Below are positions 15,506 to 20,054 of a DNA stretch of 29,753 bases, piece after piece; position 1 is the stretch's first letter, and the number at the start of each line of letters is the position of its first letter. The stretch lies in IMG/VR virus record IMGVR_UViG_2541047785_000004, positions 1 to 29,753 of that record, one strand, 5' to 3'. Position numbers and translations under genes: made by a program. The notes below the pieces were generated by a model. That model ran no database searches and was not told the DNA's origin. It saw nothing but the letters and a program-made list of their open reading frames with translations. Source of the DNA: a virus (taxonomy: Duplodnaviria; Heunggongvirae; Uroviricota; Caudoviricetes).

Positions 15506-15988
15506 TTATAAAAAGTCAAATGATAGTTGATCCATATAAAATCCTAATTCGCGCAAAACCACCTCGGCAAACAAATCTGCTTGCCATTCAGCATCTTCAA
15601 TTTGCGAAGGTGGTTTATTGGAACTGTGAAATAACGCTCTATGCCCCAACACCAAATGTCCGATTTCATGAAAGAGCACAAATAATGCTTCTCTATCACC
15701 TTTACATGCCAACTCAAATGTATGATTCGGCACACTAATTGTCAGTGTAATTGGATCGTAATGCCCAGATGTCAAATCATATGTAGCTTTAGTCCACGCA
15801 CGATCCTCAACGATATTGAGCGTTATCCCATATTCACTCAACAACTCAAATGCATGGTCTAACCGCTTTTTTCTTTTCAACGTTTTAAGGTCGAAGATCG
15901 CGCTATAGTTAACAGCGCGAGTTGTTATATCAACAATACTCATTGGTGCAACACGATTTCCACGTAATGTGTAAGCTGATTGTTCCAA
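15506..15988 (-). CDS. ImmA/IrrE-family zinc metallopeptidase (HEIGH motif), 160 aa, TTG start
   Basis: FVLFHEIGHLVLGHRALF contains the HExxH zinc-binding motif typical of ImmA/IrrE (COG2856) peptidases; TTG start 6 nt after the HTH gene stop with GAGGG RBS. Confidence 0.8.
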   Translation of the reverse strand: MEQSAYTLRGNRVAPMSIVDITTRAVNYSAIFDLKTLKRKKRLDHAFELLSEYGITLNIVEDRAWTKATYDLTSGHYDPITLTISVPNHTFELACKGDREALFVLFHEIGHLVLGHRALFHSSNKPPSQIEDAEWQADLFAEVVLRELGFYMDQLSFDFL

Positions 15989-15991
15989 CGA

Positions 15992-16351
15992 TTATCCCTC
16001 AACATGATTAATACTTTTCATCAACTCTGCTATTCGCTTTAACTGCTCTGGTGTTAATGGGGATTTAGCAAAACCAGCAACCAACATTTGCTGATTTTGC
16101 GACAATCCATCAAGGGAAACAAACTGATTAGATACATCAGCCAATTCCTGAAGATTATTAATCTCATAACCTCTTTTCAGGAAAAAAGCCTGAATCTCTT
16201 TTACCCATTTTTTGGGGATTTTCTTACTGCCTGTTTCTAAACCGCTCAGAAAAGCTGAAGTTACTCCCAGTTCTTGGGCCATCGTAAGCAATGTGCAGTC
16301 GGTATCTATCCTCGCTTTTCTAACGGCCTTACCGAATTCAGTGAGTGCCAT
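15992..16351 (-). CDS. XRE-family helix-turn-helix transcriptional regulator, 119 aa
   Basis: N-terminal HTH (AVRKARIDTDCTLLTMAQELGVTSAFLSGLETG); GAGGA RBS; co-oriented with and immediately upstream of the ImmA-like gene. Confidence 0.85.
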   Translation of the reverse strand: MALTEFGKAVRKARIDTDCTLLTMAQELGVTSAFLSGLETGSKKIPKKWVKEIQAFFLKRGYEINNLQELADVSNQFVSLDGLSQNQQMLVAGFAKSPLTPEQLKRIAELMKSINHVEG

Positions 16352-16577
16352 AGTTAATTCCTCGATTCGCTATAAGTAACAGGCTGCCTATTTTCGGAGC
16401 ACAACCTGTGATGAAGACTTCATGACTAATAAATTATCATAAAAAATGATTTTGTAAACCATTTTGGTAAATTTATTATCTGAAAGCAAAAAAACGCCAA
16501 AGAGGGTTAAGCGCGGGTGCGTTGAGGATGCCGACACATCAGAGGTGGCGGGAGATTACTCTCCCGCCTGGTCACTC

Positions 16578-16733
16578 TTACTTCTCAGATTCGTAGTCCA
16601 CGAAGACAGCAACCTCCGTCTGGCCGGTTCGGATTCGTACCTCGCAGAGGTCTTTCCTCGTTACCAGTGCCGTCACTATGACGGTTAAACAGATGACGAT
16701 CAGGGCGATTAACATCGCCTTTTGCTGCTTCAT
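16578..16733 (-). CDS. hok: Hok/Gef-family type I toxin (HokD/RelF-like), 51 aa
   Basis: MKQQKAMLIALIVICLTVIVTALVTRKDLCEVRIRTGQTEVAVFVDYESEK: single TM helix plus the conserved LTRK.LCE.R...EVA.F..YE tail of Hok proteins; AAGGAG RBS 9 nt upstream; stable hairpin GGCGGGAG/CTCCCGCC (16547-16568) in the 3' region. Confidence 0.8.
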   Translation of the reverse strand: MKQQKAMLIALIVICLTVIVTALVTRKDLCEVRIRTGQTEVAVFVDYESEK

Positions 16734-17023
16734 AGCCTGCTTCTCCTTGCCTTTCGGCACGTAAGAGGCTAACCTAGATTTGCCGTTCATAGATTGAGCC
16801 TCAGATTAATGTTAAGCGTCTTGCAGGACGCGTAATGTTAACTGGGCTTTTCTTTATCTGCCTTTTGATGTTCATGCCTGAGACAGATAGCCTCAAGCAC
16901 CCGCAGCGATTTTACTTACCCTCCCCTCTAGTTCATTCGATACTACAACTTTATTTTCTTTTCGTTGTCTATATAGTAAATAACATGTAATAAAAGTTAG
17001 TCACTAACAATGGAGAGATGCAT

Positions 17024-17242
17024 ATGCCCACACTTATCGGAAAAGTGCTTCGTCGATACACAAGTGCTGTAGCAACCCATGTTGACACCCATCTTGAGCA
17101 AACGACAAAATATCGTCTTACAGTTGATGCGAACGGTAATGCCACCCTGAACATAGAAAACCCAGAAGTTCAAGCAGACATCATCAAGAAAATGAAACAA
17201 TTGCGAAAACTACATAACCGTACAGACAAGGAAGTTGCTTAA
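17024..17242 (+). CDS. Small soluble hypothetical protein (72 aa), first gene of a coupled two-gene cassette
   Basis: GGAGAG 6 nt upstream of the ATG at 17024; stop overlaps the downstream start (TAATG at 17240-17244). Confidence 0.55.
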   Translation: MPTLIGKVLRRYTSAVATHVDTHLEQTTKYRLTVDANGNATLNIENPEVQADIIKKMKQLRKLHNRTDKEVA

Positions 17243-18033
17243 TGGGTCCATTGATTATAACTGTGATTCTCGTGTGTGGTTTTTGGTACACCGAGAATCA
17301 CTATCAATCGAGAATTCATCACGCAAGAACAAATGGGTGGTCATCCTATTTCTACGTTGCAATGCATGGGTGTCGTTTTGTTGCTCAAGGATTTCTTTTG
17401 ACGCTCGGGATCTACATGCTTTTCTGGCTACTGAACTCTATCCCACACATAATCAATATTTTCCGAGACAAACCTATAGAATGGCATTTTTTTAATTGGT
17501 TACTTGAAACCAAAGTGATGGAATTACCACTTTTTGCTGTCATCACCATCATTTTCGCTTGTTGTATTGCTTACTCTGAAGGGGTGGATGCGCGAAAAGA
17601 AATGGAGAATGAAGAAGCGCGGCAAAAGGCTTACAGGGAGATGGCATCAAAAGATTCACTAGAAAACCTATTGATCCAAGCCATTGACACAGAGATGCTG
17701 ATTTTTGTAACACTAAAATCCAGAAAAGTATATATCGGGTATGTGGCAGCACCACGTGTTGAATTCCACAACAGTGCGCATCTTGAGATCATACCATTCA
17801 TTAGTGGTTACAGAGATAAGGATTCACTACGCTACATAGAACAACACCGATACTATGATCTCTATCTATCCAAAGAAATCACATTTGAGTCCGAACCATT
17901 AAATTTACAACATTTTCGACACGTCATTCCTATCGAACAAATTGAAGCGATCTCGCTCTTTGATGAAAGCACGTACAGCGATTTTGAAAGATTTTCCGAG
18001 CCAATGCCTGACACAAAGCAATTACCAGTATAG
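17242..18033 (+). CDS. Membrane protein with three N-terminal TM helices and a ~150-aa cytoplasmic domain of unknown function, 263 aa
   Basis: Hydrophobic segments PLIITVILVCGFWY, FLLTLGIYMLFWLLNSI, LPLFAVITIIFACCIAY, then a charged soluble domain; low GC; opposite strand to the flanking early-operon genes. Confidence 0.7.
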   Translation: MGPLIITVILVCGFWYTENHYQSRIHHARTNGWSSYFYVAMHGCRFVAQGFLLTLGIYMLFWLLNSIPHIINIFRDKPIEWHFFNWLLETKVMELPLFAVITIIFACCIAYSEGVDARKEMENEEARQKAYREMASKDSLENLLIQAIDTEMLIFVTLKSRKVYIGYVAAPRVEFHNSAHLEIIPFISGYRDKDSLRYIEQHRYYDLYLSKEITFESEPLNLQHFRHVIPIEQIEAISLFDESTYSDFERFSEPMPDTKQLPV

Positions 18034-18237
18034 TATTACCCCCCCCTCTAACGATATACTAAAAAGCCGCTACAACTGGACTGCCCCTATAAAGTTGGAC
18101 AGTTCATGTTAAGCGGCTTTCAGGGCTTGACCCAACAGAAGTTAGATTGTAAGTATCCCGCTTAAACGGACCATCTGGTCTTTGTTCCACGGTGACGTGC
18201 TCATACTCATACCTCCTGAAATGTGGGAGATTTGAGT

Positions 18238-18366
18238 ATGGTTGTCCCTTATGAGAGAAATTTGCACGAAGTGGATAAGTTACCGGAGCTGAAGGTCCGC
18301 TGTGAGCGAAGAGCGGACCTGAGATTGTGGTATGCTAATTTATGGGGATCAGGTCAATTGTATTAG
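18238..18366 (+). CDS. Possible 42-aa small ORF with hairpin-sequestered RBS
   Basis: GGGAGA 7 nt upstream of the ATG at 18238; peptide MVVPYERNLHEVDKLPELKVRCERRADLRLWYANLWGSGQLY; the RBS pairs with the upstream ACCTCC; contains a 9-bp perfect stem (18293-18320). Confidence 0.25.
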   Translation: MVVPYERNLHEVDKLPELKVRCERRADLRLWYANLWGSGQLY

Positions 18367-19055
18367 TTATCTTTTTGCTTTTCTTTATCCCATTTCTTTG
18401 CAGTGGTCTGATACCACTCTTCACGTACTCGTTGTTCCTCGGCTCTGTCACTTGAATTATAGTTGTCTGTTTTAATTTTTTTGCTTCCATGGGAAATCGG
18501 CCTCCAGTCTTCTCTAATCTTTTTCACCTGCTCGGCTATCTGTGTCATTGGACTCCTTGCACCTAAGTAGCTAACCCCCTCGAAAGAAGCCATATCATAA
18601 GAATACTCATTCCGCTCTCTTTCAGTTGAGCCCGGCTGTTTAGACCAACTAATACTAACAGAATAAACTTGATCTTTAATCTGTTCATACTTACAAAGAC
18701 TGCTGTTGAGCGAATGGCCGTTTTTTAATACGCTAACCTTGCTAAATGGTATACCTATATTTTTTCTATGTTCAGCATTTACCAGTGGGGGATTAAATCC
18801 GATTTCAATATCATAGGCTGGGGCATTTCCGGTATTAGCAATATTGATATCAAAATAAAAAGCAGCCCAAGAATTTGGTTCAAGAGTCACAACGACGTGA
18901 GGTTGAACTGATGCGTCAACCATCCTTTTTGTCTCGTCTGCTAATAGCCTTGTTACTCTCCACAAGAAAAATGTAGCAACTGCTGTTAGCAATGCTGCCA
19001 AAGCGGAGATAAGTGTGCTTACTGTGTTTATATGCTCTGCGATAAATTCGATCAT
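18363..19055 (-). CDS. Membrane-anchored hypothetical protein (single N-terminal TM, ~190-aa soluble domain), 230 aa
   Basis: AAGGA RBS 7 nt upstream of the ATG; N-terminal helix VSTLISALAALLTAVATFFLW; own long (~450 bp) upstream region; low GC. Confidence 0.7.
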   Translation of the reverse strand: MIEFIAEHINTVSTLISALAALLTAVATFFLWRVTRLLADETKRMVDASVQPHVVVTLEPNSWAAFYFDINIANTGNAPAYDIEIGFNPPLVNAEHRKNIGIPFSKVSVLKNGHSLNSSLCKYEQIKDQVYSVSISWSKQPGSTERERNEYSYDMASFEGVSYLGARSPMTQIAEQVKKIREDWRPISHGSKKIKTDNYNSSDRAEEQRVREEWYQTTAKKWDKEKQKDN

Positions 19056-19543
19056 GAGTTGTCCTTGGGGGCGTACTAATTGTTTTCAAGACTAAAATAG
19101 CGCCGGGCTTGAAAAATTGCACACTTATGGTTCGATTTACCTCAACAGTTAAGGCTTCAGCTTCCCCCATGCACCTCACCCAGCTCAAGGCTGTATGATG
19201 TCTGACAAAGAACTTACTGACACTTGAAAACGAGGTAGCGGCTAGGATTTCTCGTAGGGGAAGGATTGAATACGAAGCCTGTATATTGCTCCGCGAACGC
19301 TGCTGAGAGCAGTTTAAATGTTGGGCGTTTATGTGGCCTTTCACTCACCAGCATGAGTTCAATGCCTGTGAATTACCGACAACAATATAAAGGGGGTGGC
19401 ATCATATATCCAAGGTAGAGTCAAATCCTTTAACTGGTTTTATGATCAGCGTCAATTGTTTAATTATTGAACGTTTACGAAGCGGCACGGGAGTCATATA
19501 ACTAATGGGCAGGTATAAGCCTGTATCACGAGGAATCAGTAAA

Positions 19544-19723
19544 ATGGCTGATGATAAGACCAAAATCGGTACCCCTGACAATGATTTAATAAGTATCAAA
19601 CAGGATTACGAAAGACGTGATTGGGCTGAAAAGTTTGGAGTTAGCGAGGCCAAACTTGTTCAAGCCGTACAGGCTGTAGGTCATTCGGCTAAGAAAGTAC
19701 AGGCATGGCTTAAAGACCATTAA
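19544..19723 (+). CDS. DUF3606-family small protein, ~59 aa from the ATG at 19544 (track ORF begins at 19505)
   Basis: MADDKTKIGTPDNDLISIKQDYERRDWAEKFGVSEAKLVQAVQAVGHSAKKVQAWLKDH matches the DUF3606 pattern (…D..Y…W..K.GVS…L..AV..VG.S…V…L). Confidence 0.65.
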   Translation: MADDKTKIGTPDNDLISIKQDYERRDWAEKFGVSEAKLVQAVQAVGHSAKKVQAWLKDH

Positions 19724-19728
19724 TATAT

Positions 19729-19756
19729 GAGCGCCTTTCTAGGCGCTTTTTTCTTT
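19729..19756 (+). terminator. Rho-independent terminator after the DUF3606 gene
   Basis: agcgcct-ttct-aggcgct followed by ttttttcttt. Confidence 0.7.
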
Positions 19757-19775
19757 GTCCTTTTGGAGATGATTT

Positions 19776-20054
19776 ATGGCTAATAATTTATTTATTACTT
19801 ATGATCTCATTAAAACGAAAGATTATGCGGCTGTGTATGATGCAATTAAATCTTTAGGAAATTGGGCTTTAACAACTGAATCGAACTGGTATGTTAACTG
19901 TAGTTACTCTGCCGAGGATGCAGCCAAAATTGTGAGGGCGGTCATGGATAGTGATGATAAACTTATTGTTGTAGACGCAACCAATAACTTAGTTTATTGG
20001 TACAATCTCTCTGATGAAGTTAGTAACCAAATTCAGACTGAGTGGTACAAGTAA
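19776..20054 (+). CDS. Hypothetical protein, 92 aa
   Basis: GGAG RBS; complete ORF MANNLFITYDLIKTKDYAAVYDAIKSLGNW...; followed by the aaaggggg/ccccccttt hairpin. Confidence 0.6.
   Translation: MANNLFITYDLIKTKDYAAVYDAIKSLGNWALTTESNWYVNCSYSAEDAAKIVRAVMDSDDKLIVVDATNNLVYWYNLSDEVSNQIQTEWYK

What the first reader, a model, noticed from the sequence alone, without database searches (positions are those of the whole stretch)
17024..18033. Translationally coupled two-gene cassette (72-aa soluble protein plus 263-aa 3-TM protein) in the low-GC cargo island
The two ORFs share a TAATG stop/start overlap, are AT-rich relative to the phage backbone, and sit on the opposite strand to the early operon, between the Hok toxin gene and a convergent membrane-protein gene. 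The larger product has three N-terminal TM helices and a ~150-aa cytoplasmic domain with no motif I can recognise. A small partner plus membrane effector at a prophage cargo site is the architecture of many exclusion or abortive-infection modules, and I cannot assign either protein to a named family.
Basis: partly seen in the sequence, partly recalled or inferred. Interest (0 to 1): 0.75.

Follow-up and report, generated by a model that had tools for sequence, protein, structure and literature searches.

The report
Membrane-anchored Sm-like protein with small partner
These two overlapping genes are a real, widely conserved and mobile pair of unknown function, a small basic protein plus a membrane protein with an Hfq/Sm-like cytoplasmic domain, that rides in the "cargo" hotspots of temperate phages where anti-phage genes usually sit; nobody has tested what it does.

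Summary
Gene A (17024-17242, 72 aa) and gene B (17242-18033, 263 aa) overlap in TAATG, are AT-rich, and lie between hok/sok and a convergent gene in a defective Rac-like E. coli prophage.

No Pfam, NCBIfam, PADLOC or PDB sequence match exists; PHROGs files both as unknown.

- **Family size:** up to about 2,900 clusters at 50% identity.
- **Pairing:** 46 of 47 intact homologues in species-representative genomes have a small, usually basic ORF directly upstream.
- **Mobility:** the roughly 1.1-kb module sits in the P2 gpA-portal (tin/old) hotspot (43 of 80 viral contigs), in lambdoid nin/Q/lysis regions (23 of 80), and on chromosomes.

Rousset et al. 2022 list the family as unannotated P2-hotspot cargo but did not test it.

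Best reading (about 0.4): a toxin-antitoxin-like phage-exclusion module in which A gates a membrane effector. This is context-based inference. Immediate chromosomal neighbours show no strong defence-island signal.

It is a good experimental candidate, not a demonstrated defence system.

The parts
16950..17023 (+). Upstream region that travels with the cassette. It holds a candidate promoter (-10 TATAGT at 16972-16977, weak -35) and a Shine-Dalgarno GGAG at 17012-17015.
   Evidence: DNA similarity between the window and the P2-borne copy in Citrobacter (L073) starts about 75 nt upstream of the A start. The ubiquitous hokD-like homology ends near 16925, and the Rfam sok match ends at 16902. The consensus promoter scan did not call a promoter here, so the -10 assignment is my reading of the conserved TATAGT and is inferred.
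17024..17242 (+). Gene A: a 72-aa soluble, basic (pI 9.7) protein. It has a conserved beta-hairpin (residues about 32-42, near-invariant G38, motif DANGNATLN) followed by a C-terminal helix.
17242..18033 (+). Gene B: a 263-aa inner-membrane protein with three TM segments, predicted N-out/C-in, and a cytoplasmic Sm-like domain.
   Evidence: It matches phrog_3630 and phrog_23864, both function unknown, with no Pfam, NCBIfam, PADLOC or PDB sequence hit. AlphaFold gave pLDDT 83.3.
17242..17583 (+). Membrane part of B. TM1 is about aa 1-19. The highly conserved cytoplasmic loop 1 and start of TM2 cover aa 18-47 (98% identical to the 84%-identity homologue). TM2 is about aa 41-76. The periplasmic loop 2 (about aa 73-94) is hypervariable. 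TM3 is about aa 91-114.
   Evidence: Family-average hydropathy and loop charges. Regional divergence: dN is 0.018 for aa 1-47 against 0.225 for aa 48-117. Distant members carry insertions of roughly 50 aa or more between the second and third hydrophobic segments (read by eye).
17656..17991 (+). Cytoplasmic Sm/LSm/Hfq/WYL-like beta-barrel of B (aa about 139-250). Invariant basic loops are T157-L-K-S-R-K-V-Y-x-G166 and S188-G-Y-R191-x-K193.
18063..18120 (.). Imperfect long hairpin just downstream of B (24-nt arms, 75% complementary). It may be a terminator or a recombination scar. Whether it belongs to the module is uncertain.
   Evidence: The P2-borne copy has a canonical GC stem plus T-run at the equivalent place, read directly from the alignment. 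The terminator scan did not call a site here.

Best explanation
**What it is (shown).** A and B form an autonomous, horizontally mobile two-gene accessory module (a 'moron') of temperate phages.

**What I think it does (inferred).** I think it is most likely a toxin-antitoxin-like phage-exclusion (abortive infection) module expressed in the lysogen.

**Proposed mechanism.**
- B sits in the inner membrane with its N-terminus out and its C-terminus in. This places a conserved loop and an Sm-like beta-barrel in the cytoplasm.
- Like other Sm/Hfq domains, the barrel probably forms a ring. Its invariant basic loops (KSRK and GYRxK) probably bind a nucleic acid or nucleotide ligand.
- The small basic protein A is made in fixed proportion by translational coupling. 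It binds the acidic cytoplasmic part of B and keeps it inactive.
- Infection removes or displaces A, or supplies the ligand. The clustered transmembrane helices of B then perturb the membrane and stop phage development.

**Status of each step.** Shown: the genes, the coupling, the three hydrophobic segments, the Sm-like fold of an AlphaFold model, the conservation of the pair, and its location in phage hotspots. Inferred: the N-out/C-in topology (from the positive-inside rule), expression in the lysogen, ring formation, ligand binding, the A-B interaction, toxicity, and any anti-phage effect.
For: 1. **The pair is conserved as a unit.**
   - 46 of 47 intact B homologues from species-representative genomes have a small same-strand ORF directly upstream.
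   - The gap is -13 to +15 nt in 43 of 46 cases.
   - 32 of the upstream ORFs match the A profile at E < 1e-3.
   - All 11 individually inspected contexts show the same arrangement.
2. **Charge complementarity is conserved.** The A-like protein has pI > 8 in 40 of 46 pairs. The B C-terminal part has pI < 6.5 in 37 of 46.
3. **The module is mobile and favours phage cargo hotspots.**
   - 198 IMG/VR contigs encode relatives.
   - Of the best 80, 43 lie between P2 gpA and the portal gene, and 23 lie in lambdoid nin/Q/lysis regions.
   - The closest relatives (84% identity) are, apart from one 106-aa ORF, the only cargo of that P2 hotspot.
   - Other copies sit beside AAA_15/21 ATPase genes, a SEFIR-domain gene, an AAA_13 gene and restriction-modification genes.
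4. **The hotspot is known for defence cargo.**
   - The gpA-portal interval is an experimentally supported hotspot of anti-phage systems.
   - The family is listed there as unannotated systems #43 (93 loci) and #57 (75 loci) (PMC9122126).
   - Six of eight randomly chosen unknown loci in the sister P4 hotspot were protective (PMC13586616).
5. **The fold fits a sensor.**
   - The Sm/WYL-like barrel carries its invariant basic residues in loops.
   - WYL domains are predicted ligand sensors of defence systems (PMC4012209, listed).
   - One family member carries an H-NS-type DNA-binding tail.
6. **Orientation in the window.** The cassette is antisense to the prophage early operon and has its own conserved upstream region. 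This fits expression in the lysogen.
7. **Decay pattern.** Where B is frameshifted or truncated, A is still intact in 7 of 8 loci.
Against: - No phenotype exists.
- There is no similarity to any PADLOC model, including for ten distant members.
- The family motifs were not found in the held supplements of four studies: Rousset 2022 (tested systems), Vassallo 2022, DefensePredictor 2026 and the hotspot-annotation preprint.
- Immediate neighbours of chromosomal copies are mostly transporters, oxidoreductases and regulators. Only a handful of the 148 neighbours hit a defence model.
- P2 hotspots also carry non-defence cargo such as partition systems and toxins.
- The excess of disrupted B over disrupted A is no more than expected from gene length, because B is 3.6 times longer.
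- Synonymous sites are saturated, so positive selection on the variable loop could not be tested.
- A is basic and lies upstream like an antitoxin, but it has no recognisable DNA-binding or antitoxin fold.
- Some copies lie co-oriented just downstream of Q or gpA. They could be lytic-cycle genes there.
Confidence: 0.4

Rival explanations
1. Non-lethal superinfection exclusion at the genome-entry step. B sits where phage DNA crosses the inner membrane. Its variable periplasmic loop meets the ejection machinery, and its cytoplasmic Sm-like ring binds or blocks the incoming DNA. A acts as a cofactor.
For: - B is membrane-anchored with a predicted N-out/C-in topology, and its periplasmic loop is hypervariable in sequence and length.
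- Invariant basic loops sit on a nucleic-acid-binding fold.
- One member is fused to an H-NS DNA-binding domain.
- SNIPE is a precedent for a membrane-bound defence that acts on DNA during injection (PMC13190303).
- The module sits in prophage hotspots.
Against: - Classical entry blockers are single membrane proteins (general knowledge of SieA, Imm, Sim and HK97 gp15). The universally coupled soluble partner is unexplained by this model.
- B has no nuclease or other enzymatic domain.
- Loop variability may simply reflect lack of constraint (one search was inconclusive).
Confidence: 0.18
2. A plain addiction (toxin-antitoxin) module that stabilises the prophage or genomic islet, with no role against other phages. 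B is a membrane toxin and A its antidote.
For: - A small gene lies upstream with a stop/start overlap.
- The module is autonomous and scattered in many unrelated chromosomal contexts.
- Photorhabdus akhurstii carries two copies in one genome (L033 and L035).
- B decays while A stays intact in 7 of 8 degraded loci.
- In the window it sits next to another addiction locus, hok/sok.
Against: - There is no homology to any known toxin or antitoxin family.
- A shows no DNA-binding fold for autoregulation.
- The strong preference for phage cargo hotspots (66 of 80 viral contigs) suggests a role in phage competition.
- Many toxin-antitoxin modules in such hotspots also defend, so this rival overlaps with the best explanation.
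Confidence: 0.15
3. A phage life-cycle or lysogenic-conversion function unrelated to defence. One example is a membrane-tethered RNA- or DNA-binding factor that modulates host or phage gene expression, lysis timing or envelope physiology.
For: - The Sm/Hfq-like fold is best known from RNA chaperones.
- Many copies lie directly downstream of the Q antiterminator and upstream of lysis genes, or downstream of gpA, co-oriented with lytic operons.
- P2 hotspots also hold non-defence cargo.
- Defence signal among chromosomal neighbours is weak.
Against: - The module is dispensable and sporadic: 7, 14 and 2 of 5,426 complete E. coli genomes for three variants.
- It moves between unrelated phage types and non-phage sites, which argues against a core life-cycle role.
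- In the window it is antisense to the lytic operons.
Confidence: 0.2
4. The ORFs are not functional genes, being chance ORFs or decaying remnants.
For: The host prophage is defective, with tail and terminase pseudogenes in the matching genome. Eight of the 55 species-level loci with a detectable B carry a broken copy of B.
Against: - Both ORFs are full length relative to hundreds of homologues.
- Purifying selection is strong.
- The copies are at least 99% identical across 7 genomes.
- Ribosome-binding sites are intact.
Confidence: 0.02

Closest known systems
Sm/LSm/Hfq superfamily and the related WYL ligand-sensor domains (DriD, BrxR, PafBC)
   Different: There is no sequence-level match to the Pfam LSM, Hfq or WYL models. 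The domain is fused to a three-helix membrane anchor, which no characterised Sm, Hfq or WYL protein has to my knowledge. An extra helical insert lies between strands (residues about 204-226). Ring formation and ligand binding are untested.
Membrane effectors of abortive-infection systems that combine TM helices with a small cytoplasmic ligand-binding domain (CBASS Cap15, Pycsar PycTM, type III CRISPR Cam1/Csx23)
   Same: The general build is the same: a few N-terminal TM helices and one small cytoplasmic sensor domain with no enzymatic domain. These systems also occur in mobile defence loci. The comparison is from general knowledge of those systems.
   Different: Those effectors are switched on by a nucleotide signal made by a partner enzyme. 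Here the only partner is a 72-aa protein with no catalytic potential. No PADLOC model of such effectors matches B.
Two-gene prophage exclusion modules with a membrane component (lambda RexAB) and type II-like toxin-antitoxin pairs
   Same: It is a two-gene operon carried as prophage cargo. Like type II toxin-antitoxin pairs, it has a small upstream partner and a stop/start overlap.
   Different: There is no sequence or profile similarity to RexA, RexB or any known toxin or antitoxin. Toxicity, neutralisation and exclusion are all untested. In typical type II pairs the antitoxin is acidic, but here the small protein is basic.
Unannotated P2-hotspot systems #43 and #57 of Rousset et al. 2022 (Table S5B)
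   Same: They are the same protein family. Entry #43 is a 263-aa protein with the LKSRKVYIG and SGYRDKD motifs, found at 93 loci. Entry #57 is a B-like protein plus a 78-aa small protein, found at 75 loci.
   Different: Those entries are only catalogued ('2 TM', no Pfam). They are not among the systems that were cloned and tested. The window copy sits in a lambdoid prophage, not a P2-like one.
SNIPE (membrane-bound nuclease that cleaves phage DNA during injection)
   Same: It is a defence protein held constitutively at the inner membrane, where phage DNA enters (PMC13190303). It serves as a functional precedent for the entry-step rival.
   Different: SNIPE has a nuclease domain and B has none. 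No homology between them was found or tested beyond the negative family searches.

Membership tests
Sm/LSm/Hfq-like fold (superfamily level) | An N-terminal helix followed by a strongly bent five-stranded beta-barrel of about 60-75 residues. | tested here: met
Sm/LSm/Hfq-like fold (superfamily level) | Sequence match to the Sm1/Sm2 or Hfq family profiles. | tested here: not met
   No Pfam LSM or Hfq hit at E <= 0.1. No PDB sequence hit with the family profile.
Sm/LSm/Hfq-like fold (superfamily level) | Ring-shaped homo-oligomer that binds RNA or DNA. | not testable with these tools
   No multimer prediction or binding assay was available. This would need AF-multimer, SEC-MALS and EMSA.
WYL domain | Match to the WYL profile, and association with a DNA-binding or effector module as a ligand sensor. 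| tested here: not met
Known anti-phage defence systems (PADLOC-DB v2.0.0) | Profile match of at least one component to a catalogued defence protein. | tested here: not met
   No hit for A or B at E <= 0.1. No hit for ten distant B homologues. Newer DefenseFinder models and DefensePredictor scores could not be run.
Type II-like toxin-antitoxin module | A small upstream gene translationally coupled to a larger downstream gene, conserved as a pair. | tested here: met
   TAATG overlap. 46 of 47 pairs are conserved, with a gap of -13 to +15 nt in 43 of 46.
Type II-like toxin-antitoxin module | The downstream product is toxic and is neutralised by the upstream product, and the antitoxin autoregulates the operon. 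| not testable with these tools
   The only indirect hint is that A stays intact in 7 of 8 loci with a broken B, which is within the expectation from gene length. No operator palindrome is conserved between the window and L073; this is my reading of the alignment together with the repeats.
Phage defence-hotspot cargo (P2 gpA-portal locus) | Location between the gpA replication gene and the portal gene of P2-like phages. | tested here: met
   Met for the family: 43 of 80 viral contigs, loci L002, L010 and L073-L077, and Table S5B of PMC9122126. The window copy itself is in a lambdoid prophage.
Holin (class I: 3 TM, N-out/C-in) | A small protein (about 70-110 aa) in the lysis cassette that matches holin profiles. 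| tested here: not met
   B is 263 aa with a 150-aa folded cytoplasmic domain and has no holin Pfam or PHROG hit. The prophage has its own holins elsewhere.
MscS-like channel (3 TM plus an Sm-like beta domain) | Match to the MS_channel profile or to MscS structures. | tested here: not met

The most novel reading that the evidence does not exclude
The pair would be the founding example of a new anti-phage mechanism. A ring of membrane-anchored Sm-like domains would sit under the inner membrane. The ring would recognise nucleic acid as the phage genome enters, or an early phage RNA. It would then either plug entry or convert its 18-21 clustered transmembrane helices into a leak. The small basic partner would act as the gatekeeper. 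This would be the first membrane-tethered Sm/Hfq-type sensor and a large immune family (more than 2,000 sequence clusters) with no current annotation.
Probability: 0.25. Interest if true: 0.8.

Novelty: new variant of a known kind. Interest (0 to 1): 0.55.

Why it matters
**A large, unannotated family.** The B family has 142 clusters at E <= 1e-30 and up to about 2,900 at E <= 1e-3 (50%-identity clusters). It reaches from Enterobacterales to Bacteroidota and Acidobacteriota. It has no Pfam, NCBIfam or defence-database entry. NCBI even misnames the small partner 'multidrug ABC transporter ATPase'.

**It occupies prime phage cargo sites.** The pair is often the main or only cargo in the P2 tin/old hotspot. 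It also occupies the Q-to-lysis slot of lambdoid phages, the position used by Shiga toxin genes.

**What a positive result would add.** If the module excludes phages, it would add a mechanistically new effector type, a membrane-anchored Sm-like domain. It would also explain a recurrent unknown in prophage hotspots. If it does something else, it would be a first case of a membrane-tethered Hfq/Sm-like protein in bacteria.

**It is cheap to test.** The module is only 1.1 kb and comes from E. coli.

Tried and rejected
- **Family libraries.** Pfam, NCBIfam and PADLOC scans of A, B and ten distant B homologues gave nothing credible. PHROGs gave only 'unknown function' families.
- **PDB by sequence.** The family profile returned only a spurious permease hit at E 0.55.
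- **Phage GenBank.** Megablast found no match.
- **Promoter and terminator scans.** Nothing was called in the expected places.
- **dN/dS by region.** Synonymous sites are saturated, so there was no valid test for positive selection on the variable loop.
- **Defence-island test on the nearest neighbours of chromosomal copies.** The signal was weak or absent.
- **Asymmetry of pseudogenisation.** More B than A copies are broken, but not beyond what gene length predicts.
- **Link to the adjacent HTH plus ImmA/IrrE pair** (weak CapH/CapP-like hits). Rejected as part of the module, because it does not accompany the cassette elsewhere.
- **Internal start at M121** (suggested by phrog_23864 covering residues 121-263). 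Rejected, because the Met is not conserved in alignment A1.
- **Holin, MscS-like and NfeD-like readings.** No profile or structure support.
- **Literature.** Accession and motif searches found no functional study.
Full report
**1. Observation**

- The two ORFs exist as described. A is 17024-17242 (72 aa) and B is 17242-18033 (263 aa), both on the + strand.
- The stop of A (TAA, 17240-17242) and the start of B (ATG, 17242-17244) share one base.
- Both starts have a Shine-Dalgarno sequence at good spacing: GGAG 8 nt before 17024, and AAGGAAG 7 nt before 17242. The alternative ATG at 17018 abuts the GGAG and is less likely.
- GC is 0.40-0.41 across the cassette, against 0.50-0.62 in most of the window.
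- To the left lies a hok/sok locus. Pfam HOK_GEF scores E 1e-22 and Rfam sok scores 95.6 bits at 16728-16902.
- To the right a 230-aa ORF converges.

**2. Where the window comes from**

- The 1.2-kb region is 99.4-100% identical in 7 of 5,426 complete E. coli genomes, always chromosomal.
- In NZ_OU342919.1 it lies in a lambdoid prophage with Rac-type immunity genes (racR, ydaS, ydaT) next to yccA. It sits between the replication genes and the DUF968-RusA-Q block. All of these are on the opposite strand.
- That prophage is defective, with fused tail and terminase pseudogenes.
- RefSeq annotates A and B as hypothetical proteins.

**3. What the proteins are**

*Database searches*
- Neither protein matches Pfam, NCBIfam or PADLOC.
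- PHROGs places A in phrog_32583 and B in phrog_3630 and phrog_23864, all of unknown function.

*Size and conservation of the B family*
- B has 115 homologues in the word-indexed search, spread across Enterobacterales and beyond.
- An exhaustive profile search found 142 cluster representatives at E <= 1e-30, 2,131 at E <= 1e-10 and 2,914 at E <= 1e-3. Most of the best 150 are full-length proteins of 240-320 aa.
- Ten distant members also lack credible Pfam or PADLOC hits. The exception is one protein with a C-terminal H-NS DNA-binding domain (E 1e-9; motif TWSGKGRRPKW).
- The alignment shows invariant G13, G43, K159-S-R-K-V-Y164, G166, S188, R191 and Y204. G189, Y190 and K193 are conserved in at least 90% of sequences.

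*Membrane topology of B*
- Family-average hydropathy gives three membrane segments, at about residues 1-19, 41-76 and 91-114.
- Loop 1 is positive and loop 2 slightly negative. By the positive-inside rule this predicts N-out/C-in.

*Fold of the cytoplasmic domain*
- AlphaFold with this alignment gave pLDDT 83.3.
- Nearly all of the top 60 hits belong to this fold group.
- A profile search of PDB sequences found nothing.
I found no paper describing such a domain.

*Protein A*
- A is soluble and basic (pI 9.7).
- Its model has pLDDT 68. The core is more confident: a beta-hairpin around the near-invariant G38, followed by a helix.
- Fold search gave nothing useful.

**4. The pair is a conserved, autonomous module**

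- Every context I inspected has a 58-83-aa gene directly upstream of the B homologue.
  - P2-like prophages of Pantoea, Citrobacter, E. coli, Klebsiella and Salmonella.
  - Lambdoid prophages of Serratia.
  - Pseudoalteromonas phage C5a.
  - Chromosomal sites in Photorhabdus, Ignatzschineria and others.
- The small proteins are homologous, although they diverge fast. Many are misnamed 'multidrug ABC transporter ATPase'.
- In 56 loci from species-representative genomes, 47 B genes are intact.
  - 46 of them have the small upstream ORF.
  - The gap is -13 to +15 nt in 43 of 46 cases.
  - 32 of the upstream ORFs match the A profile at E < 1e-3.
  - The A-like protein is basic in 40 of 46 pairs, and the B C-terminal part is acidic in 37 of 46.
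- DNA similarity between the window and the 84%-identical P2-borne copy begins about 75 nt upstream of A and ends just after B. The ubiquitous hokD-type homology stops near 16925.
- The unit is therefore about 1.1 kb: upstream region, A and B.
- The neighbouring hok, HTH/ImmA and 230-aa genes do not travel with it.

**5. Where the module lives**

- IMG/VR holds at least 198 viral contigs with a relative.
- Of the best 80 contigs:

| Location | Contigs |
|---|---|
| P2 gpA-to-portal interval | 43 |
| Lambdoid nin/Q/lysis regions (many directly downstream of Q and co-oriented) | 23 |
| Unclassified by my marker set | 14 |

- The gpA-portal interval is the tin/old locus. Rousset et al. 2022 showed it to be a hotspot of anti-phage systems, although it also carries partition systems and toxins.
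- Their Table S5B lists this family as unannotated systems #43 (93 loci) and #57 (75 loci, with the small partner).
- The family's motifs do not occur in their table of cloned systems, so it was not tested.
- The motifs are also absent from the held supplements of Vassallo 2022, DefensePredictor 2026 and the hotspot-annotation preprint.
- The new systems named in the 2026 P2/P4 study do not resemble it. That study found 6 of 8 random unknown P4-hotspot loci to be protective. It found a machine-learning defence signal for 15-32% of unknown P2 proteins.
- Against a simple defence-island story, the 148 nearest neighbours of chromosomal copies are mostly ordinary genes. A few are integrases, gpA or Q, and only a handful hit a defence model.

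**6. Mechanism**

*What is shown*
- Translational coupling.
- Three conserved hydrophobic segments.
- The Sm-like fold of an AlphaFold model.
- Invariant basic loops.
- Conserved charge complementarity between A and the cytoplasmic part of B.
- A very conserved cytoplasmic N-terminal part next to a fast-evolving middle segment. Residues 1-47 are 98% identical (dN 0.018), while residues 48-117 are 67% identical (dN 0.225).
- Length variation in the periplasmic loop.

*What I infer*
- The N-out/C-in topology follows from the positive-inside rule.
- B forms Sm-type rings under the membrane.
- The basic loops bind a nucleic acid or nucleotide.
- A binds and restrains B.
- Infection releases B, which then disturbs the membrane.

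*Rivals and their weights*

| Reading | Confidence |
|---|---|
| Toxin-antitoxin-like exclusion module (best explanation) | about 0.4 |
| Non-lethal block of genome entry (the SNIPE precedent, the H-NS fusion and the variable periplasmic loop speak for it) | about 0.18 |
| Plain addiction module | about 0.15 |
| Non-defence function | about 0.2 |

*Limits of the evidence*
- In broken copies B decays while A stays intact (7 of 8 loci). This is no more than the 3.6-fold length difference predicts.
- dN/dS could not be used, because synonymous sites are saturated.

**7. Comparison and novelty**

- At the fold level B belongs with Sm/LSm/Hfq/WYL domains. It fails their sequence profiles, and the membrane anchor is new for this fold as far as I could find.
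- As a system it resembles two-gene prophage exclusion or toxin-antitoxin modules, and TM-plus-sensor effectors such as Cap15. It shares no homology with them and lacks a signal-producing enzyme.
- I rate it a new variant of a known kind. It is catalogued but unstudied.
- Interest is moderate to high as an experimental lead (0.55). It would be higher only if a phenotype or a ring-sensor mechanism were shown.

Noticed in passing
window 15506-16351 (- strand): An HTH protein (119 aa) is followed by an ImmA/IrrE M78 metallopeptidase (160 aa). Both give weak PADLOC hits to the CapH/CapP regulator pair (E 2e-3 and 4e-4). The peptidase also hits Lit and RmrA weakly. This pair does not accompany the A-B cassette in other genomes.
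   Followed up: partly
window 16578-16925: A hokD-type hok/sok locus (Pfam HOK_GEF E 1e-22; Rfam sok 95.6 bits). The query interval covering it, roughly window 16483-16925, matches at about 84-93% identity in most of the listed hits. 5,033 of 5,426 complete E. coli genomes match some part of the 4.6-kb query. Its right boundary marks the left junction of the A-B module.
   Followed up: partly
window 18077-18259: The intergenic DNA downstream of B matches, at 90-93% identity, DNA annotated as part of 'site-specific integrase' genes in other E. coli genomes (H29, H56). It looks like a recombination scar left by another mobile element.
   Followed up: no
window 18063-18320; L001 19611-20839: Three hairpins lie in the 330-bp convergent intergenic region: 18063-18120, 18202-18240, and a perfect 9-bp stem at 18293-18320. 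In NZ_OU342919.1 an IS2 element is inserted in this same interval. No Rfam family matches.
   Followed up: partly
window 18363-19055 (- strand): A convergent 230-aa protein with an N-terminal hydrophobic segment matches phrog_11802 (E 3e-145, function unknown). It has no Pfam or PADLOC hit and is another uncharacterised cargo gene.
   Followed up: no
window 19505-20054 (+ strand): A DUF3606 protein (72 aa) is followed by a 92-aa protein (phrog_1090). The second gives a faint PADLOC hit to Cas2 (E 0.02). They may form another small two-gene cargo unit on the same strand as A-B.
   Followed up: no
proteins P0281, P0297, P0299, P0301, P0304, P0306, P0312, P0313, P0318, P0321, P0324: About 55-74-aa homologues of A are named 'multidrug ABC transporter ATPase' in NCBI records. 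This is a propagated misannotation, since they are far too short for an ATPase.
   Followed up: yes
protein P0257 (322 aa): A distant B-family member ends in an H-NS-type DNA-binding domain (TWSGKGRRPKW). This domain fusion hints that the cytoplasmic end of these proteins works near DNA.
   Followed up: partly
L033 and L035 (Photorhabdus akhurstii DSM 15138); L008, L031-L036: Photorhabdus genomes carry the cassette outside recognisable prophages, for example next to PA-IL lectin and T6SS PAAR/TssF genes. At least one genome has two copies.
   Followed up: partly
L001 4118-5792 (matching genome NZ_OU342919.1): The host prophage is defective. A truncated tail gene abuts a truncated large-terminase gene, so most of the head and tail genes have been deleted.
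   Followed up: no
L010 5853-7492 (Klebsiella phage ST15-OXA48phi14.1); L077 8069-10405; L002 7552-9470: In P2-like phages the cassette shares the gpA-portal hotspot with other likely defence genes: a SEFIR-domain protein, an AAA_13 ATPase, and an AAA_15/21 ATPase with a 223-aa partner.
   Followed up: partly
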